This document shows, in pieces, positions 3,554-57,385 of a DNA stretch of 64,000 nt. Position numbers and translations under genes: made by a program. The notes under the pieces were generated by a model. It saw nothing but the letters and a program-made list of their open reading frames with translations. It made no database searches and was not told where the DNA came from. Every line of letters starts with the position of its first letter. The first letter of the stretch is position 1. The stretch is from a bacterium (GTDB taxonomy: Bacteria; Margulisbacteria; Marinamargulisbacteria; SXXA01). The stretch covers positions 3,104-67,103 of the forward strand of contig RHAI01000001.1 of NCBI GenBank assembly GCA_010028705.1. The letters are read 5' to 3'.

Positions 3554-3567
3554 TAATTCACCGGACG

Positions 3568-13568: not shown

Positions 13569-13575
13569 GCTACCC

Positions 13576-40436: not shown

Positions 40437-41753
40437 ATGATCGCATCTCTAGTTCATATTGATTCTCTGTCGATCGTCATCATGATTCTGGTGGGATTTA
40501 TCGGATCCATTGTCCTGGCGTTCGCCACACGTTACCTAAGATACGACCGGCATTACGCCCGATTTCTAGCGTCACTGAGCGGTCTACTGGTGTCTGTTAT
40601 CATCTTAAGCGTTTCCGATCATGTTGTGCTTTTTGGCATAACGTGGACACTGGTTAATGGAATACTGATTCGGCTAATGACCCATTTTCGCCAGTGGCCA
40701 CAGGCCATCGAATCGGGACGCCAGGCCGTTTATCGCTTGGGAATAGGCACGGCGGCACTATATTTGGGGCTCATCCTAGTGACACACTCGGCACACAGCG
40801 TTCGAATTTCGACCATCATCCACACGGTGCCGGTCACCCCAATGTCGACCATTGGGATCGGATGTATTGTCATTGCTGCATTGGCACAATCCGCTATTAT
40901 TCCGTTTCATAAATGGCTACTGAGCTCCCTTAATTCCCCAACCCCCGTTTCGGCACTCATGCACGCCGGAATCATTAACGGCGGGGGGGTTCTACTGACA
41001 CGATTTGGGCCGTTGGTCATTCAACATCCCACGATTCTTCATTTTTTGGTCATCATCGGGCTACTGACCGCCGCGTTTGGAACGGCATTTAAATTAGTGC
41101 AATCGGACATCAAGCGCATGTTAGCGTGTTCCACGATGGGGCAAATGGGGTTCATGATACTCCAATGTGGACTGGGATTATTTCCCGCTGCTATTTCGCA
41201 CATGGTGTGGCACGGCATGTTTAAAGCCTATTTTTTCCTGGATTCTCCGAGCGCCGCGCAGTACCCCAAACTTAGCAAGCCCGAAACCCCGCATCCGTTG
41301 TCAGCCATCGCGTCAATTGTGGGTGGTATGGCGGCGGCATCCATTGCCATGATGATACTCCATATTTCAGTGGCCCCGATCAATTCTTCGGTGGTCATCC
41401 CCATTGTTATCGGAATCGCAGGCACCCAAGGAATGATGACATTTATTCAACGAAACGGTGTATCTCTGGCCCCGATTGGGTTCGGACTAGCAGTGGTGAT
41501 GGGCGCCATGTACGGATTCAGTGTCCGGATCGTCGAAACGACGCTAAGCCCCCTTCACCTGTTGGCACCCCAACCCTTTCATTGGGTTCATGGCATGGCC
41601 GCCAGCGTATTAATTGGATTATGGGCAAGTATCGCCTTGAGCCCATTGATTACGAAACGAAAATTACCCGGGCTATACGTTTGGATACTGAACCTCAGTC
41701 AGCCTCACCCCGCCACGATTACCTCCGACAGAAACATGTACCGCTATGATTAA
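40437..41753 (+). CDS. dabB: Proton-conducting membrane transporter subunit (NuoL/MrpA-like); DabB-like partner of a DUF2309 protein
   Basis: A 438 aa polytopic membrane protein with ~12 hydrophobic helices and a NuoL-family-like core (HAGIINGGGVLLTRFGPL; MGQMGFMILQCGLG). It lies immediately upstream of a DUF2309-type gene and overlaps it by 8 nt. Confidence 0.6.
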   Translation: MIASLVHIDSLSIVIMILVGFIGSIVLAFATRYLRYDRHYARFLASLSGLLVSVIILSVSDHVVLFGITWTLVNGILIRLMTHFRQWPQAIESGRQAVYRLGIGTAALYLGLILVTHSAHSVRISTIIHTVPVTPMSTIGIGCIVIAALAQSAIIPFHKWLLSSLNSPTPVSALMHAGIINGGGVLLTRFGPLVIQHPTILHFLVIIGLLTAAFGTAFKLVQSDIKRMLACSTMGQMGFMILQCGLGLFPAAISHMVWHGMFKAYFFLDSPSAAQYPKLSKPETPHPLSAIASIVGGMAAASIAMMILHISVAPINSSVVIPIVIGIAGTQGMMTFIQRNGVSLAPIGFGLAVVMGAMYGFSVRIVETTLSPLHLLAPQPFHWVHGMAASVLIGLWASIALSPLITKRKLPGLYVWILNLSQPHPATITSDRNMYRYD

Positions 41754-43932
41754 CTCCTCGGCCACTATTCGTGATATCATCGAGGCCGCTTGGCGGCCCA
41801 TCTCACCGTTTTGGCCACTGCAATCGATTGTATCGGTCAACCCACTTCAGGGTTTGGAATATTTGCCATTTGATCAGGCCATCGTTCACGCCCAGCATTT
41901 ATGGGGAAGGACCCCATTACCTGACACGATCTCCACTGCGAATCGGATCTCGATAAAATGGTGTCAATCGCTCATGGATTTGGGCCAGGCTCGAATTGGA
42001 ATTGTATCCAAACGGCGCACACTATTTGACACCTGGAAATCACTGGCCGTATGGGATACGGAACTCACCCGACCATGCCCCACATTACGATCATGGTTAG
42101 ACAAAGATCCCGTTGATTTGATCGCGCATCACATCAATGAACTGGGGATAACCCTCGATCAGGGAGCCGAGTTACTGACACTCACGCTCACATCGCTACC
42201 GGGATGGGCATCGCATGTTCGGTATCTCGACCAATGGGCATCGGGTCACCCGACGGATATCCAAACCGATTTCCTCGCAATTCGGTTAAGTATTATTCGG
42301 GCCGTTGGTCAGGACTCCGAAATCGTGCGGTGGGTCACCACGCCGCCAGTGCCGAATCCCGATTTTATAAATTATCAGGCCATCCGCGACGCCGAATCTG
42401 ACTATATTCCATCGCTAATCCAACGCCTGGAATCGGCGATAAACCACCCATCGCCCAGTGAATCACCCGACCTACAAATGGCATTCTGTATTGATGTTCG
42501 CTCAGAACCTATTCGCCGAGCGATCGAGTCAGCGGGGCCGTATCAGACGTTTGGGATCGCCGGTTTTTTTAATATTCCGATTCAAATTTCCGACCATTTG
42601 TCACTCGAGACCCACCCGTCATGCCCAGTCATAATGCGCCCGGAATATCGCATCCACGATCGACGCCCCGCATCAACCTGGCTGGCCCATAGTTTAAAAT
42701 CATGGCATATGATTCAACGCGGAATTCGGTATTTGTATCGAACACTCAAATATACATTTTCCGCTCCCTTTGCATTAGTCGAAATAGTCGGTGGAAGTTT
42801 AGGGATCGCTATGGCGATACGAACATTATTTCCCGCCGTGGCCCACATGGCGACCCCTCAAAAAATACACGCTACCCCCCGATTGCCATCAGTATTGGAT
42901 GCATTAACAGCGATTCCGTTAGAGGATCAAATTCGCTACACCGAAGGTGCGTTGAGGACGATGGGATTAACGGACAACTTTGCCCCAATCATACTTATTT
43001 GCGGCCATGGCAGTTCGACTCAGAACAATGCCTTCGCCACAGCCCTCGATTGTGGCGCATGTGGCGGGCAACCCGGCGACCGAAATGCCCGTGTTCTTGC
43101 ACAACTCCTCAATTCCCCCGATGTACGACAGGCGCTTCATTCACGGGATATCTCGATCCCTGACAGCACATTATTTATGGCGGCACTGCACAACACAACA
43201 ACTGATCACATCTCATTATTCGACGACAGCCTCCTACCTCCAAACGGAATCCAGCAGGCTATTCTTGAACGATTTAAGTCCCATTTACCCGCCATACAAT
43301 CCATATGCGCCCATCGACGACTGACTCAACTGGGGCACCCCACCGACGTCCGCCTTGCAACACGTTTGGCGATTAAACTCAGTGTGGACTGGGCGCAAAT
43401 CAGACCGGAATGGGGGTTATCCGGAAATGCCTCTATTATTGTCGGCGATCGTGAGCTCACGCGAGATCTCGACCTTGGCGGCCGGTCATTTTTGCAGTCC
43501 TACAATTGGCACTCTGACCTCGATGGCCGCATATTAGTGAGCCTTCTGGATTCGGCTGTTGTTGTCGCCCACTGGATCAACAGTCAGTACCTTTTTTCAA
43601 CCATCAATCCAACCGCCTTTGGAAGTGGGAGTAAAGTGACCCACAACATCACAGGAAAACACAGCGTCATGCAAGGCAACGCCAGTGACATTATGACTGG
43701 ATTGCCAATGCAATCGTTATATCGGCGACCGGGAGAACCGTACCATGCGCCCGTCCGACTAACGATCGGAATTATGGCGCCCATCGATCGAGTCATCGGG
43801 TCGATAAAACAATCCCCGACGCCGCTTCAATTGATTATTAATCAATGGGCCCATTTGGTGGTGATTGATCCGATCACCCGGCGAGTCAGTCGGATTACCC
43901 ACACCGAACTATTGGCGCACTGTTCCGCCTAG
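41746..43932 (+). CDS. dabA: DUF2309-family protein, DabA-like (putative inorganic-carbon accumulation complex subunit)
   Basis: A 728 aa ORF with the motif FCIDVRSEP. A His and a Cys lie 15 residues apart (ICGHGSSTQNNAFATALDCGACGG). This matches the Cys-x-Asp ... His ... Cys beta-carbonic-anhydrase-like site described for DabA. Confidence 0.65.
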   Translation: MINSSATIRDIIEAAWRPISPFWPLQSIVSVNPLQGLEYLPFDQAIVHAQHLWGRTPLPDTISTANRISIKWCQSLMDLGQARIGIVSKRRTLFDTWKSLAVWDTELTRPCPTLRSWLDKDPVDLIAHHINELGITLDQGAELLTLTLTSLPGWASHVRYLDQWASGHPTDIQTDFLAIRLSIIRAVGQDSEIVRWVTTPPVPNPDFINYQAIRDAESDYIPSLIQRLESAINHPSPSESPDLQMAFCIDVRSEPIRRAIESAGPYQTFGIAGFFNIPIQISDHLSLETHPSCPVIMRPEYRIHDRRPASTWLAHSLKSWHMIQRGIRYLYRTLKYTFSAPFALVEIVGGSLGIAMAIRTLFPAVAHMATPQKIHATPRLPSVLDALTAIPLEDQIRYTEGALRTMGLTDNFAPIILICGHGSSTQNNAFATALDCGACGGQPGDRNARVLAQLLNSPDVRQALHSRDISIPDSTLFMAALHNTTTDHISLFDDSLLPPNGIQQAILERFKSHLPAIQSICAHRRLTQLGHPTDVRLATRLAIKLSVDWAQIRPEWGLSGNASIIVGDRELTRDLDLGGRSFLQSYNWHSDLDGRILVSLLDSAVVVAHWINSQYLFSTINPTAFGSGSKVTHNITGKHSVMQGNASDIMTGLPMQSLYRRPGEPYHAPVRLTIGIMAPIDRVIGSIKQSPTPLQLIINQWAHLVVIDPITRRVSRITHTELLAHCSA

Positions 43933-44436
43933 AGACGGAGCGACGGATACGCGAATATTTTCGGCCAATTGGGTGAGCGCCGTGATATCGCCCATTGGTC
44001 CACTCCCCGAACAAATCCACCCCTCGTATCGTTCAAACCAAAACTGTTTGCCACTGAGTTGCTGGCGCCAACTGCCATTTTCTAAATGTTCAGTCCCATG
44101 CATGGGCACCAATTTAATGTGAGCGTGATCAACCCCGGTACCCTCCATAATCAATCCAACGCGGCCCACGTCGTCAAAATAATTTTCAAGAATACCCGCG
44201 ACCGTTTTCGAGGCCAAAATAAACCGTTGGAGCACCTCATCGGGCATCTTCAACACATCGCTACCAAAATGGATTTTGGGGACAACACACGAAAATCCTT
44301 CGGTATTCGGATCGATTGCCAACCACGCCATAAAGTCGTCGTCACTCCAAAAAATTCCTGGAGTGTTTATTTTCCCAGAAATAATGTCACAAAAAATGCA
44401 TCGATTATCAGCGGTGTGCGACGGGTAATTAGCCAT
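43909..44436 (-). CDS. HIT-family (histidine triad) nucleotide hydrolase/transferase
   Basis: Start set at MANYPSHT. The longer ORF to 44532 would run through tRNA-Tyr. The protein has a Cys-rich N-terminus (CIFCDII) and the histidine triad DHAHIKLVPMH. Confidence 0.75.
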   Translation of the reverse strand: MANYPSHTADNRCIFCDIISGKINTPGIFWSDDDFMAWLAIDPNTEGFSCVVPKIHFGSDVLKMPDEVLQRFILASKTVAGILENYFDDVGRVGLIMEGTGVDHAHIKLVPMHGTEHLENGSWRQQLSGKQFWFERYEGWICSGSGPMGDITALTQLAENIRVSVAPSLGGTVRQ

Positions 44437-44446
44437 AAATAGTTGG

Positions 44447-44530
44447 TGGAGGGAGCTGGATTTGAACCAACGTAGAGCTAAGCTCGGCAGATTTACAGTC
44501 TGCTGCGATTGACCACTCCGCCATCCCTCC
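44447..44530 (-). tRNA. tRNA-Tyr (anticodon GTA), long variable arm
   Basis: The reverse complement reads GGAGGGATGGCGGAGTGGTCAATCGCAGCAGACTGTAAATCTGCCGAGCTTAGCTCTACGTTGGTTCAAATCCAGCTCCCTCCA. The anticodon loop is CTGTAAA and the T-arm is GGTTCAAATCC. Confidence 0.85.
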
Positions 44531-44621
44531 AAAGGAAAGCTTTGAAAAAGCAGAGTATTCTAGGATATAGCTTGCGAGAAACCTATGTCAAATCAAGCCC
44601 ATTCACGCAAAGCGAATTGGG

Positions 44622-45470
44622 ATGGTAATATCTGATCCAATGAAAATTCGTCTTTCAAAACGAGGGGTGTGGCTACTAGCGCTTGTCATTATTGCGTGCA
44701 TCATGGGCCCATTACGAGGCGTAATCTCAAATACCCCTGGGGTAGGGGTCCCCTTCTTGTACATCTACTACTGGACTGACAATCTAAAATTTTGGGGAAC
44801 AAAATCGTTGTCACCATCGCTTCGTGGGCTTGAAATACCGACCGTGGCAGGGCGTCCGATTGGGACCGATCCAGTGGGATCTCATTTTCGCTCACCCAAT
44901 AGCTCCTTTGTTCTGACCTCCAATCCTACCCCAATTTACACCCGCCCCAGCCAATCCAGTCGACGAATTCGAATGATACAGCCCGGCTATCGTGTGCGAG
45001 TGGTTTATCAAAAAGATGATGTATCTGTTTCAGACTCGAATGGTCGTGGATTATGGGTTTTTCTGACCATGGAAGATGGCAAACGTCCCATCGGATGGGC
45101 GATCAATACGACACTAGGGTATCAGGATAAATTTGCACCGCCCGCGCACTGGAACATCCCTTATTTTTCTCTGTGTATCGGTGAATATTGCGCCAGCTTC
45201 AAAGTCAAACCCAGCGGTCGATTTTATGAGACCTGGGATTCGATTGGTAAAGGAATAGAGATGAGAGGGAAAAATACCGGTCAGATTTTCGAATACCAGT
45301 CGTTAATATGGGCGAAACAAGACGATCCCGAGGATTATGATGAGCTCATTATTAAAGACAAGGCGAAAGGAATTCGCCATGAAGATAAGTACCGTGATGA
45401 ACCAATCAAGGTGACTCGGTCATATATAAAATCCATTCGATCGTCTCGCGACTACGTATTAAAAAATTAA
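44622..45470 (+). CDS. Hypothetical membrane-anchored protein (N-terminal TM; SH3-like middle region)
   Basis: A 282 aa ORF with an N-terminal hydrophobic helix (VWLLALVIIACIMGPL). No recognised catalytic motif was found. The call is tentative. Confidence 0.35.
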   Translation: MVISDPMKIRLSKRGVWLLALVIIACIMGPLRGVISNTPGVGVPFLYIYYWTDNLKFWGTKSLSPSLRGLEIPTVAGRPIGTDPVGSHFRSPNSSFVLTSNPTPIYTRPSQSSRRIRMIQPGYRVRVVYQKDDVSVSDSNGRGLWVFLTMEDGKRPIGWAINTTLGYQDKFAPPAHWNIPYFSLCIGEYCASFKVKPSGRFYETWDSIGKGIEMRGKNTGQIFEYQSLIWAKQDDPEDYDELIIKDKAKGIRHEDKYRDEPIKVTRSYIKSIRSSRDYVLKN

Positions 45471-47067
<1,597 letters not shown>

Positions 47068-47078
47068 TATTCACCACT

Positions 47079-47474
47079 ATGGATGATCAAAAAATAGGTT
47101 CGGTTGTTGAAGGGGAAGTCACACATATCACCACGTTTGGGGCCTTCGTCAAACTTGAGGATGGAGAAGAAGGGCTCGTTCATATTTCAGAAATTGCCAA
47201 CGAATATGTCACTGACATATCAAATTTTGTAAATGTTGGGGATAAAGTGTCCGTTAAGGTCATGGCCAGAAATCAAAAAAATAAGCTTGAGCTTTCGATG
47301 AAACGTTCGAAGCCTGATTTTGAAGAAGAAGCCGGCTTGTTTATGGCTAAAAAAACAAAAAATGCGGCGTTCGAAGATCGAATCACATCGTTTTTAAAGC
47401 GATCAGAAGAGAAGCAAATTGATATTCGACGCAATCTCAAGAGTAAACAAGGTATTACAAAAAAACGTCGATAA
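47079..47474 (+). CDS. S1 RNA-binding domain protein (YabR/GSP13-like)
   Basis: Start chosen at MDDQKIG. The S1 fold reads GSVVEGEVTHITTFGAFVKLEDGEEGLVHISEIANEYVTDISNFVNVGDKVSVKVMA, followed by a basic tail. Confidence 0.7.
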   Translation: MDDQKIGSVVEGEVTHITTFGAFVKLEDGEEGLVHISEIANEYVTDISNFVNVGDKVSVKVMARNQKNKLELSMKRSKPDFEEEAGLFMAKKTKNAAFEDRITSFLKRSEEKQIDIRRNLKSKQGITKKRR

Positions 47475-48543
47475 GCGACGTTTTTTACTGTTGATCTCAG
47501 TATGGTGTCTGACATTAGCCACACCTGTAGTCGCGGATTTATCCGAGGTACTGTTTACAACGCCAATTGTTTCTGGCAAATTCTACGACACGTCATTTAT
47601 CGGGATAACATCCCAAAATACCCTCACAAAGTATTCCATTACGGGACAAAAATTCTGGACAGTATCCATCGAACATCCCCCGCTCCAGCAATTGGATATC
47701 CTATTTAACCGAGTGATCATGATCGATGGCCAAGGATCGATCGAATGCCGTGATGGAAACTTTGGAATCCGACTTTGGGGAATATCGTCCGAAAAATATC
47801 GCCGATTATTTCTTCAGTATCCGATATTTTTTGCGCTGCGCGACAATGGTGCTATCGATGCGTTTGATTTCTCGAGCGGGTGTCTCTTATACGGGGTCCG
47901 GTACCCGGAGTCGTGCCGCATTTTTGATAAAATTCCAAATGGGGGCGGACTCTTTGCTCAAAACGGCACGAATGTCAGCTATATTTCTCCGGACTTGTCG
48001 GATGAAACAATCATCACTCATGAGATGAGGCCCACCGGGGAGGAGCTGGATATCACGCGTGATCGGTTGGCATATCTAGACAACACTACGATTCGTGTGT
48101 CTTCAGGGGATTCAACGATTGACACGTACGTTTTAGGCTCATCGCCCAGTCAAATACTCATTCCTAAGAACCGATTTGTGAGTATAAACTACTCCGAATC
48201 AGACCAAAATCAATGGATAATTCACTACCCATTGCTAGTCGAAATCAACCTTCCATATGGCCTGATTCGTGCTTTTAACGTCACAACGGATGACACATAT
48301 CTGGAATGGAAAGAGTTGGACCCCGACAAAAAATGGAATTCCGTTTGGTGGCAAAACGGATTAGTGGGACTCGTGAACTCTGATAACGTACTCACGATTT
48401 GGGACTACGACACCAACCGAATTCTAGGCTCTGTCCCGTGGGACGCCAAAAAAGGACACCCCATTGCGATCAATTACACACGCGATATTATTTCGATCGC
48501 CACATCAGAAAAAATGTACGTTGCGGCAGTGAGACGAAATTGA
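47419..48543 (+). CDS. Hypothetical secreted protein (possibly beta-propeller-like)
   Basis: A 374 aa ORF with a signal-like N-terminus (RRFLLLISVWCLTLATPVVA). No recognised motif was found. Confidence 0.35.
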   Translation: MIFDAISRVNKVLQKNVDKRRFLLLISVWCLTLATPVVADLSEVLFTTPIVSGKFYDTSFIGITSQNTLTKYSITGQKFWTVSIEHPPLQQLDILFNRVIMIDGQGSIECRDGNFGIRLWGISSEKYRRLFLQYPIFFALRDNGAIDAFDFSSGCLLYGVRYPESCRIFDKIPNGGGLFAQNGTNVSYISPDLSDETIITHEMRPTGEELDITRDRLAYLDNTTIRVSSGDSTIDTYVLGSSPSQILIPKNRFVSINYSESDQNQWIIHYPLLVEINLPYGLIRAFNVTTDDTYLEWKELDPDKKWNSVWWQNGLVGLVNSDNVLTIWDYDTNRILGSVPWDAKKGHPIAINYTRDIISIATSEKMYVAAVRRN

Positions 48544-50225
48544 CACTCCGAGTGATTAAAGACACTTATACCATTCAATCCGAACTTTTCAGGGACTCGA
48601 TATCCCGTTCTTTCGCAGGAAACTCGCCAACAGGGGACGTCATTATCACGCAATACGATCCCAAATTTACGGGATCCGGCACAGTCAATGCGTTAATCAC
48701 CGTGGGAAATCGGTGGTTAAATGCCTCGGGTGACTACGGCCCGCGATTAATCGATTTTCATTATGACGGCCAATCCTTTTATGCCATATATTCAGTCCAG
48801 AAACCGTGTCGGCCATTAGTCACTGTATTACGGGATTCCCCATCGATATCAATGCAGATGTTAGATCAATGGACCAAAGAGTTGCTCGATCAACTCTGTA
48901 TCCTTGAATCACTGGGTGTATATCATGGGGGAATAAGTCTCCATTCGATAGTGATTGACGGAGAGGGAAAGCTGTCGACAATCCATGCAGGGCTTCATGC
49001 TGAAATCGTACGCCTCAATCTTTCCGAGATACGCCAAATCGAATCCGCTATTTTTCTGACTGAATCCCAATTAAATGGCCACCCATCAGTGATTCAAGAT
49101 GACATTCATGCGGTTGGAGTTCTCACTTACCTGTTCTTTTCAAATACATGGCCCTACGAATTTACCGGGGAGCTGGCACGAGCACGCGCATTAATCGGGG
49201 TTCGGCATCGTCCCTTTTCACCGTCAAACGAACTCATTCCTTCCAATTACCCAATGATTATTGACTGCGCATTGATGTCTAAATCGGGCGACGGATACCC
49301 CTCTATGCAAGAACTGAGATCGGCATTTTTACCAACTAAAGCTCCACAACCGACTCCCAATTCCCCAATTATTGATCCTATCAGTACCGAGATTGCCCGG
49401 GGGCGCGATTCAGATGAACGCCAACCGCTTGATTCCCGAATCCTCGATGTATTTCATCGCAAAAAACGCATTATAACCACCGTGATCATTGGGTTAGTGT
49501 TAGCATTTACCACAAATTACCTGTACGTATCGTATGTCACCTCGATTCCTGAAATTACCGTTCCAAATATTCAAGGCGAATCACTGACCTCAGGTATATC
49601 GCAGTTGGAAGCGGTCCATCTCCAAGGAAAAGTGGCCGCCTATCGACCCGACTATACTGTGCCAGAAGGTACCATTTTAGAAACTCGCCCACCCGGAGGG
49701 CGCCAAGTTAAGCAAAACCGAATCATTCTATTAACTGTTTCAAAATATACTTCCGAATTAAAAATGCCCGATTTAATTGGGCGAACAATTACTGACGCGC
49801 AACAACTTCTGCCAAACCCAAAAACAAAAATTAAAATTATTGGAGATGCGTTTTCGATGTCGGCAACAGCCGGTGAAATCATGTCACAAATCCCAACTCC
49901 GGGAGTAACTATTAACGCCAATTCAGCCGTTCAAGTTACGATCAGTAAGGGGTTTCCGGTCCAGATAGACATCCATCCAGGCGGAAAAAAATATATTGCG
50001 ACGATAATTATTGGGGTTCCACCCGATTGGCCCGAGCAAGAAATTAGAGTAACAGTAAAGCATGGCGGCACAAGCCAACAGCTACTATCGAAGACAGTAT
50101 CCCCAGGAGATACGACTCAGACATCCGCCCCCCTCGATCTGTCCGACACATTGTCCGTCAGCTACAATGGAAAATCAGCTATCTCACAGTCTGTAAAAGA
50201 CCTACTGGCAGAAGAGGCGGAATGA
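48540..50225 (+). CDS. Membrane-anchored protein-kinase-like (probable pseudokinase) with two extracytoplasmic PASTA domains
   Basis: The N-terminal ~330 aa have a kinase-like layout with degenerate motifs. The Gly loop reads FTGSGTVNALITV with no obvious VAIK Lys. The catalytic loop reads YHGGISLHSIVID instead of HRDLKPxN. No DFG is present. A TM helix (IITTVIIGLVLAFTTNYLYV) follows. Two PASTA modules follow (VPNIQGESLTSGISQLEAVHLQG...ILLTVSK; MPDLIGRTITDAQQLL...VQVTISKG). The start is inferred as TTG at 48540, overlapping the upstream stop. The ORF track starts at 48399. Confidence 0.55.
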   Translation: MTLRVIKDTYTIQSELFRDSISRSFAGNSPTGDVIITQYDPKFTGSGTVNALITVGNRWLNASGDYGPRLIDFHYDGQSFYAIYSVQKPCRPLVTVLRDSPSISMQMLDQWTKELLDQLCILESLGVYHGGISLHSIVIDGEGKLSTIHAGLHAEIVRLNLSEIRQIESAIFLTESQLNGHPSVIQDDIHAVGVLTYLFFSNTWPYEFTGELARARALIGVRHRPFSPSNELIPSNYPMIIDCALMSKSGDGYPSMQELRSAFLPTKAPQPTPNSPIIDPISTEIARGRDSDERQPLDSRILDVFHRKKRIITTVIIGLVLAFTTNYLYVSYVTSIPEITVPNIQGESLTSGISQLEAVHLQGKVAAYRPDYTVPEGTILETRPPGGRQVKQNRIILLTVSKYTSELKMPDLIGRTITDAQQLLPNPKTKIKIIGDAFSMSATAGEIMSQIPTPGVTINANSAVQVTISKGFPVQIDIHPGGKKYIATIIIGVPPDWPEQEIRVTVKHGGTSQQLLSKTVSPGDTTQTSAPLDLSDTLSVSYNGKSAISQSVKDLLAEEAE

Positions 50226-51352
50226 TTACCGAATTTGAGACGCAAACCCTCAAACATTTATTAGCCATATCGCGACGAAATGCATGGAAAACTCGTCCAA
50301 ATCCTGCGGCTGTTGCCGCCGTGGTTAACGATGGCGTTATATTAGGGATTGGACACCATCGGGGAAAAGGATCTCCACACGCAGAAGTCGATATACTCCA
50401 TCGATTGGGTGATCGCGCCAAGGATTCCACCATTATTGTGACGCTTGAACCCTGTACTCACTGGGGAGACAATCCCCCGTGCACATCAGCCATCATTGCC
50501 AGTGGCATTAAGCGAGTGATATTTCCCATAATTGACCCCAATCCCCTGGTCAGAAAAAATTCCGCCACCGAATTACTTCAAGCCCATGGCATCGAGGTGA
50601 TTTCGGGTGTGTTGGTGGAAGAAGCCGCTGAAGCCAATATCGAATTCTTTACCCACATTAGTCAACAACGCCCGTACGTGACCGCAAAAATTGCGTGCTC
50701 GCTCGATGGAAAAATGGGATTGGATAACGGGGAAAGTTTTCCCATTTCAAGCGCGACATCGCTTCATAAGGTACACCAACTTCGAAATAAAATGGACGCT
50801 ATAATGGTGGGAGTCAACACCATTATTAACGATAATCCAAGATTAACAATTCGAGGGATTAGATCCCCCAATCGACTAATAAAGATCATCGTCGACTCCC
50901 ATGCCAGAGTGCCTTTAAACGCTCGTTGCTTTGAAAATACAGACCCGGCCGATGTATTTGTTATTACAGGGAACGATTGCCCTATAGACGCCATAAATGC
51001 CCTCAAATCCAAATCAACCATAATTGAGCTTCCCTTTGCGTCGTTAAAAGGCCGCTTTGACGCCGTAGTAAAGGCATTGTACCCGTATTCAATTTATCAT
51101 GTGCTTCTCGAGGGCGGCCCCACCTTATTGTCCGATGCGATAGATCACCAACTCGTCGACCGCCTAATCGTCATCCAGTCTCCAATACTTATCGGAGGTA
51201 CATCAAAATATTCATTTTACTCGGGGAACTCGACCCAAACCCTGAATAGTGCCCTACAATTTCAAACAATCAGACGTCAATCAATTGGCCCCGATATCTG
51301 GATTGAGGGAATGATTCACCGTCCGACATCCAATCTAACTAAAGGAATTTAA
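50222..51352 (+). CDS. ribD: Bifunctional riboflavin biosynthesis protein RibD (deaminase/reductase)
   Basis: A 376 aa ORF with the CDA zinc motifs HAEVDIL and LEPCTHWGDNPPC, plus a C-terminal RibG-type reductase domain. Confidence 0.85.
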   Translation: MITEFETQTLKHLLAISRRNAWKTRPNPAAVAAVVNDGVILGIGHHRGKGSPHAEVDILHRLGDRAKDSTIIVTLEPCTHWGDNPPCTSAIIASGIKRVIFPIIDPNPLVRKNSATELLQAHGIEVISGVLVEEAAEANIEFFTHISQQRPYVTAKIACSLDGKMGLDNGESFPISSATSLHKVHQLRNKMDAIMVGVNTIINDNPRLTIRGIRSPNRLIKIIVDSHARVPLNARCFENTDPADVFVITGNDCPIDAINALKSKSTIIELPFASLKGRFDAVVKALYPYSIYHVLLEGGPTLLSDAIDHQLVDRLIVIQSPILIGGTSKYSFYSGNSTQTLNSALQFQTIRRQSIGPDIWIEGMIHRPTSNLTKGI

Positions 51353-51355
51353 TCC

Positions 51356-52255
51356 ATGACCGAATTCAATTACACGCCAACCTTAACCAAACTGCCGTTT
51401 CCCCTGTTTCGACAAGGTAAGGTCCGAGAAGTCTACGATATTGGACCTTATTACCTGTTTGTAACTAGTGACCGAGTGTCCGCGTTTGACCATGTACTCG
51501 AAACCACTATTCCTGACAAAGGTAAGATTCTGAATTCCATTTCTGAATATTGGTTTAAACAGACTCGACGAATTTGCCCCAATCACATGCTAACGGCTGA
51601 CGTAATGGACTTCCCAATGGAGCTGAATCCCTACTCGAATGACCTACGCCATCGATCCATGGTTGTTGCGAAAACCATCCCAATTGATGTGGAATGCGTA
51701 GTCAGAGGATATATGGCCGGATCAGCATGGCAAGAATATCAACAACGAGGAAGCGTTGCGGGTATTTCCTTACCCAAGGGACTGCGACTTGGATCACCGT
51801 TACCTGAGCCACTATTTACTCCGGCAGTAAAAAATCATTCGGGTCACGACGAAAATATTACATTTGAGGAGATGGCACATTTAGTCGGTGACGATGTGGC
51901 GTCACAATTGAAGAAAATTAGTATTAACCTATTTACATTTGCTCACGAAAAAGTGAGCCATAGCGGCCTCATTTTAGCGGACACCAAATTTGAATTCGGA
52001 TGGCTAAACAACACCATTATATTAATCGACGAAGCACTGACTCCGGATTCCAGCCGGTATTGGGAGACAGAGCATTATAAACTCGACGAATCGCCACCAA
52101 GCTTCGACAAACAAATCGTACGAGACTACTTAAACCATGTCTGGTCAGAACCAGATCCTGTTCCACCTCTACCTTCAGAAGTCGTCGAAAAGGTGGTGAG
52201 AAAATACAATGAAGGATTTGAGAGGATAACGGGAGCTAAACTAATGCCATTTTAA
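51356..52255 (+). CDS. purC: Phosphoribosylaminoimidazole-succinocarboxamide synthase (SAICAR synthetase)
   Basis: A 299 aa ORF with GKVREVYDIGPYYLFVTSDRVSAFD, typical of the long-form PurC. Confidence 0.9.
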   Translation: MTEFNYTPTLTKLPFPLFRQGKVREVYDIGPYYLFVTSDRVSAFDHVLETTIPDKGKILNSISEYWFKQTRRICPNHMLTADVMDFPMELNPYSNDLRHRSMVVAKTIPIDVECVVRGYMAGSAWQEYQQRGSVAGISLPKGLRLGSPLPEPLFTPAVKNHSGHDENITFEEMAHLVGDDVASQLKKISINLFTFAHEKVSHSGLILADTKFEFGWLNNTIILIDEALTPDSSRYWETEHYKLDESPPSFDKQIVRDYLNHVWSEPDPVPPLPSEVVEKVVRKYNEGFERITGAKLMPF

Positions 52256-52381: not shown

Positions 52382-52912
52382 ATGCACAACACAATGGTAA
52401 AAAAGTTTAATTATATTTTAGGAATAATCGGTCTGCTTGCAACGCACCTCACCGCAAGCGATATTCCGTTTCGCACACAGTTCTACTCCGTGATCCTATC
52501 GAGTGATTTCGTCACGACTCCAAATAATAAACAGAGCAGTATTAATTACTTTATATTGCCATCCATCGCTACGTTTTCAATAACCACGTACGATTTAAAC
52601 TTCACACCAACCCCTGGGGCCATCGAAGCGATACGAATTCATGACCGGTACGACGGCTGGATATTGAAACACCGCAGAGACCTAACATCGGATGAATTAA
52701 GCCGATCAAACTCCCAATCCGGATCGCTCGCAGTCTACGGTTTCACTCGAATGGACGCAAATTCACTCAAAATAAAAAATAAATTATCCATCGAATACAG
52801 CTACATTACCAACCACAGATCGGCTGTAATCACGGTTGAAACCGACGACACGCACTGGAAACACCTCGAACCAAAAATAAAACAATTTGTTCGCTTGTTT
52901 ATGTTTATATAA
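52382..52912 (+). CDS. Hypothetical secreted protein
   Basis: A 176 aa ORF with a signal peptide (YILGIIGLLATHLTASD). No recognised motif was found. Confidence 0.35.
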   Translation: MHNTMVKKFNYILGIIGLLATHLTASDIPFRTQFYSVILSSDFVTTPNNKQSSINYFILPSIATFSITTYDLNFTPTPGAIEAIRIHDRYDGWILKHRRDLTSDELSRSNSQSGSLAVYGFTRMDANSLKIKNKLSIEYSYITNHRSAVITVETDDTHWKHLEPKIKQFVRLFMFI

Positions 52913-53349: not shown

Positions 53350-53755
53350 CACACCCAAATCCCACGTTGATCACGGCTTTGTTGCCAAATGCTCCATCTG
53401 CCCCATTTTCGCTCTACTCATGTCGCTCTGCACCACCACGTGGAGAAAGAAACGGCGAATCTGAATCATTTGGCAACATCGCTATTTCTGAAAATAATCC
53501 ATTTTGCAACAGGCCCAACAACGAAAAAGACCGACGTCCACCGTTTAGCGGAGATCCACAGCCTAACTCACCAGTAACCCAGCCAATCAATCACTACAAT
53601 TCAACAAGGTTATCCCTTGTATCCTTCAGATATCAATTAAAATCAACTAGTACGGCATACACTCGACCAATTTAATTCGGACTCATTTCCCCCGACTATT
53701 AGCTTAACAAAAGAGAAAAGCACCGAGGAAAAAAATAAACCAATTTTAATAAATG

Positions 53756-53832
<77 letters not shown>

Positions 53833-53834
53833 AG

Positions 53835-54326
53835 TTACCGTTCATCAAAATACTTGGAGAAATCGTCGGGCTTAATGTTGTCAATAAATTCGCGGAATTT
53901 CTGAGCCTCTTCTTCATCCTTTTCAGCATTGACCATTTTAGCTTTCGCCATCACGGACTCAGATACAAACACCGGCGAACCTGTCCGAACCGCGATCGCA
54001 ATTGCATCGGATGGACGGGCATCGACTTTTAACGAGGTACCGCTGTTAGACAAAATTTCTACAAATGCGTAAAAAGTATTATCAAGAATGTCATTAATCG
54101 CCACTTTTACGACTTTACCACCAAACAACTCAATCAACTTGGTAATCAAATCGTGAGTCATCGGACGGGGCGGCTTGAATTCCTGAAGTTCCATGGCAAT
54201 CGCGGCGGCCTCGAACATGCCGATCCAAATTGGTAGAAAATTCCGGTCTTCCATATCCCGCAATAATACAATAGGAGACATATTTTTAGGATCAAATCCA
54301 AGCCCCCCCAATTGCATTTCAATCAT
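53835..54326 (-). CDS. Bifunctional nuclease (BFN/DUF151) domain protein
   Basis: A 163 aa ORF. ...PIVLLRDMEDRNFLPIWIGMFEAAAIAMELQEFKPPRPMTHDLI... matches the BFN-domain signature (P.VLL......LPIWIG..EA.AI..........RP.THDL). Confidence 0.6.
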   Translation of the reverse strand: MIEMQLGGLGFDPKNMSPIVLLRDMEDRNFLPIWIGMFEAAAIAMELQEFKPPRPMTHDLITKLIELFGGKVVKVAINDILDNTFYAFVEILSNSGTSLKVDARPSDAIAIAVRTGSPVFVSESVMAKAKMVNAEKDEEEAQKFREFIDNIKPDDFSKYFDER

Positions 54327-54942: not shown

Positions 54943-55446
54943 TTATTTGGGATTCAAAAACGCAATTAAGGACCGACCTGATTGACTCACTTGCCCCTCT
55001 AAAGTGCCATTCTCACGCAACAAGTCCACAAATTTATCCACGTTTTGACGACCTAACTCGGGGTGAATAATTTCCCGACCACGGAATGATACGGATACTT
55101 TAACCTTAAACCCTTTTTCTAAAAACTCTCGTCCGTGATTTACCCGAACCATCAAATCGTGCTCCGATATTTTGGCGCTCAATTTGAGTTCTTTAATAAC
55201 ATGGCTCTTGGATTTTTTTTGAGCTTGTTTTTCTTTTTTTCGCTGTTGGTACTTAAATTGACCAAAGTTGACCAACTTGCATACCGGCGGATCAGAGGTT
55301 TCCGAGACGAGCATTAAATCTAAATTACCGTCCCTCGCCATTGTCATCGCACTCTCTATTGGGACAATACCGTGCTGAGTACCATCATCGCCAATCAGTC
55401 GCACAGTGCGAGCTTTGATTTTTTCATTTAGTAAATACTTTTTTAT
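54943..55446 (-). CDS. infC: Translation initiation factor IF-3, with a probable non-AUG (AUA) start
   Basis: The conserved IF3 N-terminus LNEKIKARTVRLIGDDGTQHGIV lies upstream of the GTG at 55404 used by the ORF track. The frame is open back to an ATA codon at 55446-55444. That ATA is preceded by AGGAGG at a 7-nt spacing. infC classically uses AUU/AUA for autoregulation. Confidence 0.8.
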   Translation of the reverse strand: MKKYLLNEKIKARTVRLIGDDGTQHGIVPIESAMTMARDGNLDLMLVSETSDPPVCKLVNFGQFKYQQRKKEKQAQKKSKSHVIKELKLSAKISEHDLMVRVNHGREFLEKGFKVKVSVSFRGREIIHPELGRQNVDKFVDLLRENGTLEGQVSQSGRSLIAFLNPK

Positions 55447-55639
55447 ACTGGTTCCTCCTGTATCTCCGGAACATCTTGCCTAACGTCGAGAATACAGAAT
55501 TCAATCCAGTCGGCATGGCCGAGAGAGTATATATTCTATCTAAAAAAAATGTCAATGTGGCGAGGTCATTTTAAGTTCAAAATGTATCCGTATTATTGTC
55601 TCAATTTTTTTAACAACGATGGATCAACATAATTCACAG

Positions 55640-55790
55640 GCCTGTGTATAACTTGTAGATAACTAGTGAAAATCTATGATATTTGTTATTAAAAAAAACA
55701 CGAAATAACCCGTAATAAGGCATTAAATTAAACTCAAATCAATTAGATAAAAATCTCCCTATATACAAAAACACAATCTGTGGATAACCT
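55640..55790. promoter_or_regulatory. DnaA-box cluster upstream of dnaA (candidate oriC part or dnaA autoregulatory region)
   Basis: A perfect TGTGGATAA (rc TTATCCACA) lies at 55779-55787. TGTGTATAA at 55643-55651 matches TGTGNATAA. A 1-mismatch TGTAGATAA lies at 55653-55661. The surrounding sequence is AT-rich. Confidence 0.55.
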
Positions 55791-55796
55791 GTTGAA

Positions 55797-57140
55797 ATGT
55801 TGCATGAACTTTGGGAAAAAATATTGATCAACCTCAATCAAACATTATCGGGTCCGGGATATCAAACATTCGTCTCATCATCTATTCCAAAATCATTCGA
55901 AGACAATATCTTAACCATTACTGTTGGAAATCGCTTCTCGATGGATTGGATTAAGGAAAAGTGTGAACAATCTGTTCGTGACACACTTCAACAAAACGGA
56001 TTCTACCCTGTAATCGTTATGTACGATATTGATTCTACCCCGGTCACCAATGAATCCAGTCAAATGGATTTACTTGAGGTCACCACCCCGCCCCCTGTAA
56101 TTACAAATCCAAATGGGATGTTTAATCCCAAATATAATTTTGACAACTTTATTGTCGGCCATAACAACCGCTTTGCACATGCGGCATCGGAAGCAGTCTC
56201 CAAGGCACCCGCCAAAGCGTACAACCCCCTCTTTATTTATGGGTCTGTTGGACTAGGTAAAACACATTTGCTCCACGCGATTGGCAACGAAATTCAGAAA
56301 AAACACCCAAAACTCAAACTATTTATGGTGTCATCAGAAAAATTTACGAACGAACTTATTAATTCGATCAAAGATAAAAAAGTCGAAAACTTTAGATCGA
56401 AATACCGAAACGTTGATGTGTTACTCGTCGACGATATCCAATTTTTATCTGGGAAGGAACAAACTCAGGAGGAATTTTTTCACACATTTAACGAACTTCA
56501 CAGCAACAACAAGCAAATAATATTGACCTCAGACCGACCACCAAAAGAAATTCCAACACTTGAAATTCGACTGAGAACTCGCTTTGAATGGGGATTAATC
56601 GCCGACATTCAACCTCCTGAATTTGAAACTAGAATTGCTATTCTTAGAAAAAAAATTGAGTTATATAACATTCGGATTTCCGACGAGATCCTTCATTTTA
56701 TTGCAACTCAAATTCCGACAAACGTCCGCGAAATGGAAGGATGCCTGACTAAAATTTCGGCATATGCGTCACTTCTAAATACGGAAATTACCCTTTCAAT
56801 TGCGAGTAACGTCATTCGGGATATGATTGGCATTAAAAACGATAAACCGCTCACAATCACTCACATCAAACGGAAAGTATGTGATTACTTTAACGTATCA
56901 AACGTCGATCTATGCTCCAAAGGCCGAACAAGAGAACTGACGTACGCGCGGCAAATTGCGATGTATTTAGCCAGGGAATTAACGAACGTGTCACTGCCAA
57001 AAATTGGCGAAAATTTTGGAGATCGTGACCATAGTACCGTCATGCATGCATGTGACAAAGTGAAAACGTTGTTAGTGAATGACCCTGAAACAAAAAGTAT
57101 CATCAATCTGCTAATATCAAATATCAAAAACGACGAATAA
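55797..57140 (+). CDS. dnaA: Chromosomal replication initiator protein DnaA
   Basis: A 447 aa ORF with the AAA+ Walker A GSVGLGKTHLLHAIGNE, Walker B LLVDDIQF and a C-terminal DnaA-box-binding HTH (...YARQIAMYLARELTNVSLPKIGENFGDRDHSTVMHA). Confidence 0.95.
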   Translation: MLHELWEKILINLNQTLSGPGYQTFVSSSIPKSFEDNILTITVGNRFSMDWIKEKCEQSVRDTLQQNGFYPVIVMYDIDSTPVTNESSQMDLLEVTTPPPVITNPNGMFNPKYNFDNFIVGHNNRFAHAASEAVSKAPAKAYNPLFIYGSVGLGKTHLLHAIGNEIQKKHPKLKLFMVSSEKFTNELINSIKDKKVENFRSKYRNVDVLLVDDIQFLSGKEQTQEEFFHTFNELHSNNKQIILTSDRPPKEIPTLEIRLRTRFEWGLIADIQPPEFETRIAILRKKIELYNIRISDEILHFIATQIPTNVREMEGCLTKISAYASLLNTEITLSIASNVIRDMIGIKNDKPLTITHIKRKVCDYFNVSNVDLCSKGRTRELTYARQIAMYLARELTNVSLPKIGENFGDRDHSTVMHACDKVKTLLVNDPETKSIINLLISNIKNDE

Positions 57141-57147
57141 TGATTCC

Positions 57148-57355: not shown

Positions 57356-57385
57356 ATGAATCATCAAGAATTAAGCCGAGGAAAC

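What the first reader, a model, noticed from the sequence alone, without database searches (positions are those of the whole stretch)
48540..50225. PASTA-domain transmembrane pseudokinase in a presumed diderm, FCB-like genome
The kinase-like cytoplasmic domain lacks recognisable catalytic Lys, HRD-Asp and DFG residues. The extracytoplasmic part has two well-formed PASTA modules.

PASTA kinases are characteristic of monoderm Firmicutes and Actinobacteria, where they sense muropeptides or lipid II. A catalytically dead version with PASTA domains suggests a scaffold or sensor role in cell-wall signalling. It lies next to ftsB-like and S1 genes and a secreted hypothetical.
Basis: seen in the sequence. 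Interest (0 to 1): 0.5.

Follow-up and report, generated by a model that had tools for sequence, protein, structure and literature searches.

The report
Catalytically dead PASTA receptor pseudokinase family
This gene encodes a membrane receptor that keeps the cell-wall-binding outer part and the overall fold of a well-known bacterial signalling kinase but has lost every residue needed for catalysis. It belongs to a sizeable, conserved and so far undescribed family found only in uncultured bacteria that carry outer-membrane systems.

Summary
Window 48540-50225 (+) encodes a 561-aa protein made of:
- a cytoplasmic Hanks-kinase-fold domain;
- a disordered linker;
- one transmembrane helix;
- two PASTA repeats;
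- a C-terminal beta-sandwich.

This is the architecture of PrkC/Stk1/PknB. All catalytic signatures are gone:
- the glycine loop is RDSISR;
- the beta3 Lys is T37;
- HRDLKPxN is H129-G-G-I-S-L-H-S136;
- DFG is H149-A-G.

The register is fixed by a profile-profile alignment (E 2.9e-80) and by an AlphaFold model (pLDDT 91.5). The model's best PDB matches are the Stk1, PknA and PknB kinase domains.

It is not an isolated decayed gene. An exhaustive HMMER search finds at least 81 clusters (50% identity) with the same architecture. None of the 81 keeps the HRD Asp. The structural residues (APE, the alphaF Asp, the subdomain XI Arg) are kept, and dN/dS is about 0.09.

In all six examined contexts of the core family, the gene sits directly upstream of ribD. 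It usually lies in the block eno-divIC-S1-(BamB-like propeller)-pseudokinase-ribD-purC.

The host shows outer-membrane markers, so "diderm" is supported. "FCB-like" is not supported: the closest hit that carries a phylum-level label is a Margulisiibacteriota ClpB.

The function, kinase-independent peptidoglycan sensing or scaffolding, is inferred. I rate it a new variant of a known kind, of moderate interest.

The parts
48540..50225 (+). Complete gene for the 561-aa PASTA receptor pseudokinase. It starts at a TTG that overlaps the upstream stop, and its stop overlaps the ribD ATG.
48540..49334 (+). Cytoplasmic pseudokinase domain (aa 1-265) with a Hanks-kinase fold. T37 replaces the beta3 Lys (48648-48650). 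H129-G130-G131 replace HRD (48924-48932). H149-A150-G151 replace DFG (48984-48992). T174-E175-S176 replace APE, and G252 replaces the subdomain XI Arg.
49335..49454 (+). Disordered, poorly conserved juxtamembrane linker (aa 266-305), rich in Pro, Ser and Thr.
   Evidence: pLDDT below 50 for residues 268-303. Mean pairwise identity is 11%. dN/dS is 0.57.
49455..49541 (+). Single transmembrane helix (aa 306-334, hydrophobic core 311-333). It is preceded by HRKKR, so the positive-inside rule puts the kinase-like domain in the cytoplasm and the PASTA repeats outside.
49551..49751 (+). PASTA repeat 1 (aa 338-404), the most conserved part of the family. P342, P384 and R394 are invariant and K391 is 93% conserved.
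49752..49955 (+). PASTA repeat 2 (aa 405-472). Q450 is invariant; S469 and G471 are 99% conserved.
49956..50222 (+). C-terminal extracytoplasmic beta-sandwich (aa 473-561). It is comparable to the terminal Ig-like domain of the Stk1/PrkC ectodomain.
   Evidence: Model strands 474-551. Foldseek hit to 3py9. The region aligns with the C-terminus of canonical kinases in hhalign.
47419..48543 (+). Upstream 374-aa protein with a signal peptide, translationally coupled to the pseudokinase gene. It is probably a PQQ/BamB-type beta-propeller and is directly adjacent in three of the four other core-family contexts where the upstream side was visible (P0002/P0003, P0044); in P0017 two inserted genes separate it, and in P0027 no homologue was identified.
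   Evidence: The single-sequence AlphaFold model was too poor to use.
46723..47067 (+). DivIC/FtsB-like septum-formation initiator, a bitopic protein.
   Evidence: PF04977, 47.1 bits. TM segment found.
47079..47474 (+). 131-aa S1-domain protein.
   Evidence: PF00575, 58.6 bits
45483..46793 (+). Enolase, the first recognisable gene of the conserved block.
50222..51352 (+). ribD. It lies immediately downstream of the pseudokinase gene in all six core-family contexts examined.
51356..52255 (+). purC (SAICAR synthase). It is the next gene downstream of ribD in five of six contexts and inverted but adjacent in the sixth.

Best explanation
The gene encodes a PrkC/Stk1/PknB-type receptor that has become a pseudokinase.

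**What is shown**
- It has one transmembrane helix, with the kinase-fold domain in the cytoplasm. Two PASTA repeats and a terminal beta-sandwich face the periplasm.
- The kinase fold is intact, but the glycine loop, beta3 Lys, HRD Asp, catalytic-loop Lys and Asn, and DFG Asp are all replaced.
- The same losses occur throughout a family of at least 81 sequence clusters.
- The family is under purifying selection, and the PASTA repeats are its most conserved part.
- In its core the gene sits in a fixed neighbourhood: eno-divIC-S1-propeller-pseudokinase-ribD-purC.

**What is inferred**
- The PASTA/beta-sandwich ectodomain binds peptidoglycan precursors or nascent, uncross-linked peptidoglycan, as PASTA domains of active kinases do.
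- This places or clusters the protein at sites of wall synthesis or division.
- The cytoplasmic dead-kinase domain then acts without phosphotransfer. It would be a docking or allosteric surface for divisome or elongasome proteins, or for an active Hanks kinase encoded elsewhere.
- The co-translated periplasmic propeller protein is a likely partner on the outside.

The host is an uncultured freshwater bacterium with outer-membrane systems.
For: **Architecture and topology:**

**Kinase fold and homology to PASTA kinases:**

**Loss of catalytic residues in a verified register:**

**Family size:** 81 full-length cluster representatives among the best 150 hits, and 306 hits at E<=1e-30.

**Fold-maintaining residues are kept across the family**:
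- APE-Pro 79/81 and APE-Glu 77/81;
- alphaF Asp 80/81;
- subdomain XI Arg 80/81.

**Likely blocked ATP site:** Trp sits at the beta3-Lys position in 38/81 members. This resembles the occluded ATP sites described for MviN and GLW pseudokinases (PMC12599244).

**Selection**: dN/dS is 0.09 for the pseudokinase domain, 0.06 for the PASTA repeats and 0.57 for the linker.

**PASTA1 is the best-conserved region:** 38% mean pairwise identity against 28% for the kinase lobes.

**Conserved synteny** down to 25-27% identity, and overlap with the upstream propeller gene.

**Origin:** outlying relatives sit in the prkC-cpgA-rpe position.

**Outer-membrane markers:**
Against: - No ligand, partner or phenotype is known; the mechanism is by analogy only.
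- No active Hanks kinase, PP2C phosphatase or FHA protein is encoded in the window, or within the 6-10 kb fetched on each side (less where a contig ends) of the core-family members examined. The "allosteric partner of an active kinase" branch therefore has no direct support.
- The constant neighbours ribD and purC have no evident link to the cell wall. The synteny may only reflect a frozen gene order near the replication origin.
- The window protein has additionally lost the APE Glu and its Arg252 partner, which 80 of 81 members keep. Its cytoplasmic domain may be less constrained than the family's.
- The N-lobe dimer interface of PknB is only partly conserved. Tyr10 and Asp72 are kept, but the Arg and Leu positions are not (PknB numbering is from my own knowledge).
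Confidence: 0.6

Rival explanations
1. The function is purely extracytoplasmic. The PASTA/beta-sandwich ectodomain, together with the secreted propeller protein, regulates or positions a periplasmic peptidoglycan synthase or hydrolase. The dead kinase domain is only a folded cytoplasmic anchor with no signalling role.
For: - The PASTA repeats are the most conserved region.
- The upstream propeller gene is translationally coupled here and directly adjacent in the P0002/P0003 and P0044 contexts.
- No cytoplasmic signalling partner lies nearby.
Against: - The pseudokinase domain is under nearly as strong purifying selection as the ectodomain: dN/dS 0.09 against 0.06, while the linker is at 0.57.
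- It keeps family-specific conserved surface motifs such as W204-P205-Y206 and G130. A mere anchor would not need these.
Confidence: 0.25
2. It is an atypical but active kinase, or another nucleotide-dependent enzyme, that uses non-canonical residues. WNK or CASK among eukaryotic kinases are examples of this.
For: - Some families classified as pseudokinases may still bind ATP by alternative modes (DLHK; PMC12599244).
- Many family members have a conserved Lys three residues after the beta3 position (the YK motif).
Against: - In the window protein that Lys is Asp40.
- The HRD-Asp position holds no Asp (0 of 81) and is variable across the family (Asn, Ser, Gly, Thr, Ala); the DFG-Asp position keeps Asp in only 3 of 81, and the catalytic-loop Lys and Asn positions are also replaced.
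- The glycine loop is replaced by a segment that is acidic in most members (E/D-D-x-x-S).
- Trp fills the Lys position in 38/81 members.
Confidence: 0.05
3. It is a decaying, non-functional remnant of a PASTA kinase gene, or the loss of motifs is an alignment artefact.
For: - Pfam Pkinase does not detect the domain in this protein.
- The protein has lost even the APE/Arg252 pair.
Against: - There are intact full-length ORFs in at least 81 divergent clusters.
- dN/dS is about 0.1.
- The AlphaFold model has pLDDT 91.5.
- The register is fixed by hhalign at E 2.9e-80 and by structural matches to Stk1, PknA and PknB.
Confidence: 0.02

Closest known systems
PASTA Ser/Thr kinases PrkC / Stk1 (PknB) / StkP / M. 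tuberculosis PknB (NCBIfam NF033483; the 'KAPD' family of the bacterial STK atlas)
   Same: - The domain order is the same: Hanks-kinase fold, juxtamembrane linker, one transmembrane helix, PASTA repeats and a terminal beta-sandwich.
- They are the best sequence and structure matches.
- Outlying relatives of the family occupy the prkC-cpgA-rpe locus position.
   Different: - All catalytic residues are lost.
- There are only two PASTA repeats.
- The NF033483 score is 93.8 against a cut-off of 450.
- No PP2C phosphatase gene is adjacent.
- The host carries outer-membrane systems. KAPD is described as specific to Gram-positive bacteria (bioRxiv 10.1101/2025.01.12.632604).
MviN/MurJ-linked pseudokinase of M. 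tuberculosis (ActPs3 family)
   Same: It is a bacterial Hanks-fold pseudokinase tied to peptidoglycan synthesis. It lacks the catalytic motifs, and its ATP pocket is filled by bulky aromatic residues. It acts as a phosphorylation-dependent docking site rather than as an enzyme (PMC12599244).
   Different: It is fused to the MurJ flippase and a carbohydrate-binding domain, not to PASTA repeats. It is specific to Actinobacteria. No sequence-level grouping with it was seen here.
GLW pseudokinases (mainly Proteobacteria)
   Same: They are membrane-anchored by a transmembrane helix C-terminal to the pseudokinase domain. All three catalytic motifs are degraded, and a hydrophobic residue or Trp replaces the beta3 Lys (PMC12599244).
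   Different: They are defined by a GLW motif in place of HRD, whereas this family has H-G-x. No PASTA or other ectodomain is described for them.
YukC/EssB pseudokinase of the type VIIb secretion system
   Same: It is a bitopic membrane protein with a cytoplasmic pseudokinase fold that is used as a structural scaffold (PMC9600267).
   Different: It is a component of a secretion machine in Firmicutes. It has no PASTA repeats and a different gene neighbourhood.

Membership tests
Hanks-type protein kinase superfamily (fold) | Bilobal protein-kinase fold, recognisable by profile or structure | tested here: met
   hhalign probability 100%, E 2.9e-80 against canonical PASTA kinases. The AlphaFold model has pLDDT 91.5, and Foldseek matches Stk1, PknA and PknB kinase domains at E about 1e-15 with TM about 0.8. 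Pfam Pkinase itself gives no hit for this protein. The orthologues score 32.3 and 33.5 against a cut-off of 31.7.
Active Hanks-type Ser/Thr kinase | Gly-rich loop, beta3 Lys (VAIK), HRD Asp with catalytic-loop Lys and Asn, and DFG Asp | tested here: not met
   The residues are RDSISR, T37, H129-G-G-I-S133-L-H-S136 and H149-A-G. Across the family, HRD-Asp is kept in 0/81, beta3-Lys in 3/81 and DFG-Asp in 3/81.
Stk1/PknB-family PASTA kinase (NCBIfam NF033483, equivalog) | Whole-protein score at or above the curated cut-off of 450 bits | tested here: not met
   93.8 bits, matching residues 169-473 only.
Stk1/PknB-family PASTA kinase (architecture) | Cytoplasmic kinase domain, single transmembrane helix, extracytoplasmic PASTA repeats | tested here: met
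   Transmembrane helix at 311-333 with HRKKR on the N-terminal side. Two PASTA repeats. The model shows the same layout, and 3py9 is a structural match.
PASTA domain (PF03793) | Score above the gathering threshold; alpha-plus-beta repeat of about 65 aa | tested here: met
   75.4 bits against 23.2, in two repeats. The model shows a helix plus three strands in each repeat.
PASTA domain (function) | Binds muropeptide, lipid II or beta-lactam | not testable with these tools
   No binding data exist. Only the conservation of P342, P384, K391, R394 and Q450 is known.
Pseudokinase (operational definition of the bacterial STK atlas) | Kinase-fold domain lacking at least one of VAIK-Lys, HRD-Asp and DFG-Asp | tested here: met
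   All three are lacking. The definition is taken from bioRxiv 10.1101/2025.01.12.632604.
GLW pseudokinase family | GLW motif replacing HRD, and a poly-Leu or Trp motif replacing the beta3 Lys | tested here: not met
   The catalytic loop is H-G-x-(L/I)-(N/S). The feature is as described in PMC12599244. The family's own profile was not available.
ActPs3 / MviN pseudokinase family | [quoted passage not shown] | tested here: not met
   No MurJ domain is present, and the activation segment is present. Features are from PMC12599244 and bioRxiv 10.1101/2025.01.12.632604.
CP1 / DLHK / DYD pseudokinase families | CP1 and DLHK: cytosolic, with COG3899, helicase or other fused domains; DLHK keeps the HRD Asp. 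The DYD section of the review was not read. | tested here: not met
   For CP1 and DLHK: the protein is membrane-anchored, carries PASTA repeats and has no HRD Asp. Features are from PMC12599244. DYD was excluded only on the review's single mention of PASTA, which is in its reference list.
Diderm (outer-membrane-bearing) host | Genes for outer-membrane-dependent systems in the same genome or lineage | tested here: met
   TonB_C, ExbD and MotA_ExbB, plus Poly_export/SLBB, lie in the syntenic orthologue contigs. The window holds a PorV/PorQ-like protein (E 4.6e-9, below cut-off) and TIGR04183 at 24.3 against 23. A BamB-type PQQ_2 hit occurs in the homologue of the upstream gene. All of this evidence is indirect.
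FCB superphylum host | Phylogenetic placement of marker genes in FCB | tested here: inconclusive
   T9SS-like elements are present. However, among the 120 best ClpB relatives the closest hit that carries a phylum-level label is Candidatus Margulisiibacteriota at 66% identity, and none is labelled FCB. Only one marker was used, and the orthologue genomes are labelled only 'bacterium'.

The most novel reading that the evidence does not exclude
In a whole uncultured diderm lineage, possibly Margulisbacteria-related, the ancestral PrkC-type PASTA kinase has been replaced by a catalytically dead receptor. That receptor would work with a co-encoded periplasmic BamB-like propeller to couple peptidoglycan status to division without any phosphorylation. 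If so, the PASTA-receptor scaffold, rather than kinase activity, would be the conserved core function of this receptor class.
Probability: 0.2. Interest if true: 0.7.

Novelty: new variant of a known kind. Interest (0 to 1): 0.5.

Why it matters
**Place in the field.** PASTA kinases are central, often essential regulators of wall synthesis and division. They also affect beta-lactam tolerance in Firmicutes and Actinobacteria. It is still debated how much of their role depends on phosphorylation and how much on localisation or scaffolding.

**What this family offers.** It is a natural, deeply conserved experiment in which catalysis is abolished but the receptor is retained and constrained. It also occurs in bacteria with outer-membrane systems, outside the "Gram-positive-specific" range given for the PASTA-kinase family. 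If studied, it could:
- define the phosphorylation-independent functions of PASTA receptors;
- add an eighth family to the seven catalogued bacterial pseudokinase families, and the first that is PASTA-linked.

**Limits.** Pseudokinases and PASTA receptors are both known kinds, and no function is demonstrated here.

Tried and rejected
- **Word-indexed homologue search.** With the protein alone it found only two orthologue clusters. With the 81-member alignment it returned nothing new. Only the exhaustive HMMER search revealed the family.
- **Taxonomy.**
  - The single genome-contig scan returned one record titled only "uncultured bacterium".
  - Cluster look-ups gave "bacterium" and an evidently mislabelled "Thermoproteota archaeon", and no further names.
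  - The locus around the Margulisiibacteriota ClpB shares no synteny with the window.
  - Literature searches linking Margulisbacteria to T9SS or ankyrin proteins found nothing useful.
  - The afdb50 fold library, which would have given organism names, was not available.
- **Upstream protein structure.** The single-sequence model was unusable, with pLDDT 38.
- **Promoter and terminator scan of the block.** It was uninformative.
- **Literature.** The Kwon et al. 2019 pseudokinase survey is not held. I therefore could not check whether it lists PASTA-linked pseudokinases. Searches for PASTA proteins in Bacteroidetes or diderm bacteria gave nothing relevant.
- **Rejected readings.** These are mis-registration of the motifs, a decaying pseudogene, and membership of the GLW, ActPs, CP1 or DLHK families as described in the review I read (PMC12599244).
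Full report
**1. What is at the coordinates**

- The ORF runs from a TTG at 48540 to the stop at 50223-50225 and encodes 561 aa.
- Its start overlaps the stop of the preceding 374-aa ORF by 4 nt. Its stop overlaps the ATG of ribD at 50222.
- The N-termini of the orthologues align with this start.
- The gene is the fifth in a same-strand run with overlapping or very short junctions: eno (45483-46793), a DivIC/FtsB-like gene (46723-47067), a 131-aa S1-domain gene (47079-47474), the 374-aa gene (47419-48543), the target, ribD (50222-51352) and purC (51356-52255).

**2. Check of the observation**

PASTA repeats:
- Pfam finds two PASTA repeats (75.4 bits, cut-off 23.2, E 3.4e-21) and no Pkinase hit even at E<=1.

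Kinase relationship:
- NCBIfam's Stk1-family PASTA-kinase model matches residues 169-473 at 93.8 bits, far below its 450-bit cut-off.
- phmmer against PDB sequences gives PknA and StkP catalytic domains at E about 4e-4 to 1e-3 over residues 60-271.
- The 38-39% identical orthologues P0002 and P0003 just pass the Pkinase gathering score.
- A profile of 81 family members aligned to a profile of 17 canonical PASTA kinases gives probability 100% and E 2.9e-80 over 549 columns.
- An AlphaFold2 model built with the family alignment has mean pLDDT 91.5, and only residues 268-303 are disordered.
- The model's best PDB matches are the catalytic domains of S. aureus Stk1 and M. tuberculosis PknA and PknB (E 1e-15 to 1e-12, target TM about 0.8). 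The whole Stk1 ectodomain 3py9 also matches.

Motif replacements, in that register:

| Canonical motif | In this protein |
|---|---|
| Glycine loop GxGxxG | F17-R-D-S-I-S-R-S-F25 |
| VAIK Lys | T37 |
| HRDLKPxN | H129-G-G-I-S-L-H-S136 |
| DFG | H149-A-G151 |

These come, with direct translations.

**3. Anatomy**

- Hydropathy gives one transmembrane segment at 311-333. HRKKR on its N-terminal side places the kinase-like domain in the cytoplasm.
- The model shows a long helix at 301-334, PASTA1 at 338-402 and PASTA2 at 406-469.
This domain aligns with the C-terminal domain of canonical relatives.

**4. It is a family, not a lone decayed gene**

- The word-indexed search found only two orthologue clusters.
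- The exhaustive HMMER search of 1.84 billion cluster representatives found 306 proteins at E<=1e-30. Among the best 150, 81 proteins of about 400-610 aa (most about 540-600) align in a single stretch from the kinase-like domain at least through the PASTA repeats, most of them end to end.

Residue counts in these 81 members:

| Position | Count |
|---|---|
| HRD Asp kept | 0/81 |
| Gly in place of the HRD Arg | 78/81 |
| beta3 Lys kept | 3/81 (Trp in 38) |
| DFG Asp kept | 3/81 |
| APE Pro kept | 79/81 |
| APE Glu kept | 77/81 |
| alphaF Asp kept | 80/81 |
| Subdomain XI Arg kept | 80/81 |

- The glycine loop is replaced by an E/D-D-x-x-S segment.
- Canonical PASTA kinases from the same hit list keep every motif and form a separate neighbour-joining clade.
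- Mean pairwise identity is 38% in PASTA1, 31% in PASTA2, 28% in the kinase lobes, 22% in the C-terminal domain and 11% in the linker.
- Between P0002 and P0003, dN/dS is 0.09 (pseudokinase), 0.06 (TM plus PASTA), 0.08 (C-terminal domain) and 0.57 (linker). dS is about 1.6 and close to saturation, so these are rough values.
- The window protein is the only member that has also lost the APE Pro and Glu and the Arg that pairs with the Glu (T174-E175-S176 and G252). This explains why Pfam fails on it.

**5. Genomic context**

The pseudokinase gene is followed directly by ribD in the window and in the contigs of P0002, P0003, P0017 (27% identity), P0027 (25%), P0044 (26%) and P0061.

- purC follows ribD in all but one of these contexts. 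In that one it is adjacent but inverted.
- eno-divIC-S1 precedes the gene, or lies within a few kb of it, in every contig that extends upstream of the gene; the P0061 contig ends just upstream, so this could not be seen there.

The upstream 374-aa protein:
- It has a signal-peptide-like N-terminus.
- It has homologues directly upstream of P0002, P0003 and P0044, and nearby for P0017.
- The P0044 neighbour passes the PQQ_2/BamB propeller threshold (28.1 against 27.6 bits), and the P0017 neighbour scores 24.9.
- hhalign links the P0044 neighbour to the window protein at 93% probability.
- Its fold could not be confirmed, because the single-sequence model had pLDDT 38.

Two outlying relatives are arranged differently:
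- P0084 and P0101 keep the catalytic-loop Asn, and P0101 also keeps the beta3 Lys, but both lack the HRD and DFG Asp.
- They are followed by rsgA(cpgA)-rpe or by rpe, with def-fmt nearby for P0084.
- From my own knowledge, this is the B. subtilis prkC-cpgA-rpe arrangement. It suggests the family descends from a PrkC-type locus.

Signalling partners:
- No other kinase-like or PASTA sequence exists in any frame of the window.
- No PP2C or FHA domain was found in any ORF of 150 aa or more.

**6. The host**

Evidence for an outer membrane:
- The syntenic orthologue contigs carry TonB-ExbD-ExbB and a Wza-type polysaccharide exporter.
- The window carries a PorV/PorQ-like protein and a T9SS type-A sorting domain.

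Evidence on the phylum:
- The window's ClpB does not. Its best relatives (64-72% identity) are unlabelled MAG proteins. The closest hit that carries a phylum-level label is from Candidatus Margulisiibacteriota at 66%. The next labelled hits, at about 60%, are Thermodesulfobacteriota, Methylomirabilota and Brocadia. No FCB name appears in the top 120.
- The protein's own database entries are labelled only "bacterium".

I regard "diderm" as supported and the phylum as unresolved, with Margulisbacteria-like more likely than FCB.

**7. How it most likely works**

Shown:
- the topology;
- an intact fold;
- complete loss of catalytic chemistry;
- family-wide constraint that is strongest on PASTA1;
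- a conserved, translationally coupled periplasmic neighbour.

Inferred:
- The ectodomain binds peptidoglycan precursors or nascent glycan strands, as in active PASTA kinases. This reading rests on the literature summarised in bioRxiv 10.1101/2025.01.12.632604 and PMC6428115.
- This localises or clusters the receptor. The cytoplasmic pseudokinase then serves as a docking or allosteric surface.
- The frequent Trp at the beta3 position resembles the occluded ATP pockets described for MviN and GLW pseudokinases (PMC12599244).
- Whether an active kinase partner exists cannot be decided from 64 kb.

Rivals:
- a purely periplasmic role with the cytoplasmic domain as an anchor (weakened by dN/dS of 0.09 in that domain);
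- cryptic catalysis (very unlikely, because the HRD-Asp position holds no Asp in any member and is variable across the family);
- gene decay (refuted).

**8. Comparison with what is known**

- The closest family is the PrkC/Stk1/StkP/PknB PASTA kinases. Architecture and fold match, but catalytic residues and the NCBIfam equivalog threshold do not. It works from the same chassis but is not a member in the enzymatic sense.
- The 2025 atlas and review of bacterial Ser/Thr kinases list seven pseudokinase families: ActPs1-3, GLW, CP1, DYD and DLHK. For the four whose descriptions I read (ActPs3, GLW, CP1, DLHK) no PASTA link is described, and in the review 'PASTA' occurs only once, in the reference list. 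They describe the PASTA family KAPD as specific to Gram-positive bacteria.
- I found no description of a PASTA-linked pseudokinase family.
- I could not read Kwon et al. 2019, and the atlas used RefSeq and UniProt rather than metagenomes.

**9. Verdict**

This is a real, correctly read feature. It represents a previously undescribed, metagenome-only family of PASTA receptor pseudokinases in bacteria with outer-membrane systems.

- Novelty: new variant of a known kind.
- Interest: moderate (0.5). It is clear-cut, conserved and relevant to an open question, the kinase-independent roles of PASTA receptors. However, both components are known kinds and no function is demonstrated.

Noticed in passing
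window 55400-58500: This is the probable replication origin. GC skew switches from negative to positive at about 58 kb. dnaA (55797-57140), dnaN and recF follow. DnaA-box-like 9-mers cluster at 55643-55787 and 57181-57237. The pseudokinase block lies only about 6-8 kb from it.
   Followed up: partly
window 32368-34122 (+) and 37891-40185 (+): There are two large ankyrin-repeat proteins of 584 and 764 aa, the latter with at least 9 Ank_2 matches. This is unusual for a free-living bacterium and may hint at interaction with eukaryotes.
   Followed up: no
window 2612-4476 (-): There are adjacent genes for a PorV/PorQ-like protein (E 4.6e-9, below cut-off) and a protein with a T9SS type-A sorting domain (TIGR04183, 24.3 against 23 bits) and a PorU-like C-terminal region. 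These T9SS-like elements sit in a genome whose ClpB points away from FCB.
   Followed up: partly
window 53350-53835, compared with L001 12879-14541 and L004 12871-14497: The orthologous contigs carry tonB-exbD-exbB between ssb and the BFN-domain gene. The window has only about 400 bp of non-coding sequence and tRNA-Arg(tct) there, so that cluster is missing at this position.
   Followed up: no
window 12447-14316 (-): There is a KaiC-like ATPase (246 aa) next to a response-regulator-receiver/KaiC fusion (402 aa). This is a possible non-cyanobacterial Kai-type module.
   Followed up: no
window 40437-43932 (+): There is a DabB-like (Proton_antipo_M) and DabA (PF10070, 641 bits) pair, a probable inorganic-carbon uptake system.
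   Followed up: no
window 60656-62569 (+): A 637-aa ORF downstream of dnaA-dnaN-recF-DUF721, where gyrB is usually found, has no Pfam or NCBIfam hit at E<=0.001.
   Followed up: no
window 44622-45470 (+) and 52382-52912 (+): Two hypothetical proteins flank the block: a 282-aa protein with a TM anchor and a weak SH3_3 hit, and a 176-aa protein with a signal-like N-terminus. Unannotated genes of similar size sit at the same positions in the orthologous and more distant contigs (homology not tested), so they may belong to the frozen gene order.
   Followed up: no
proteins P0026, P0037, P0038, P0041, P0083 and others: Metagenomes contain giant proteins of 1,000-3,300 aa with 8-24 matches (some overlapping) to the two-PASTA unit of this family's profile and no kinase domain. 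They appear to be an unrelated, uncharacterised class of poly-PASTA proteins.
   Followed up: no
L011 4169-7562 and L014 4468-6946: The outlying relatives P0084 and P0101 lack the HRD and DFG Asp but keep the catalytic-loop Asn, and P0101 also keeps the beta3 Lys. They sit in the prkC-(cpgA)-rpe locus position. They may be evolutionary intermediates between active PASTA kinases and the dead family.
   Followed up: partly
window 43909-44532 (-): The listed 207-aa ORF overlaps tRNA-Tyr (44444-44530). Its true start must lie further in. It had no Pfam hit as listed.
   Followed up: no
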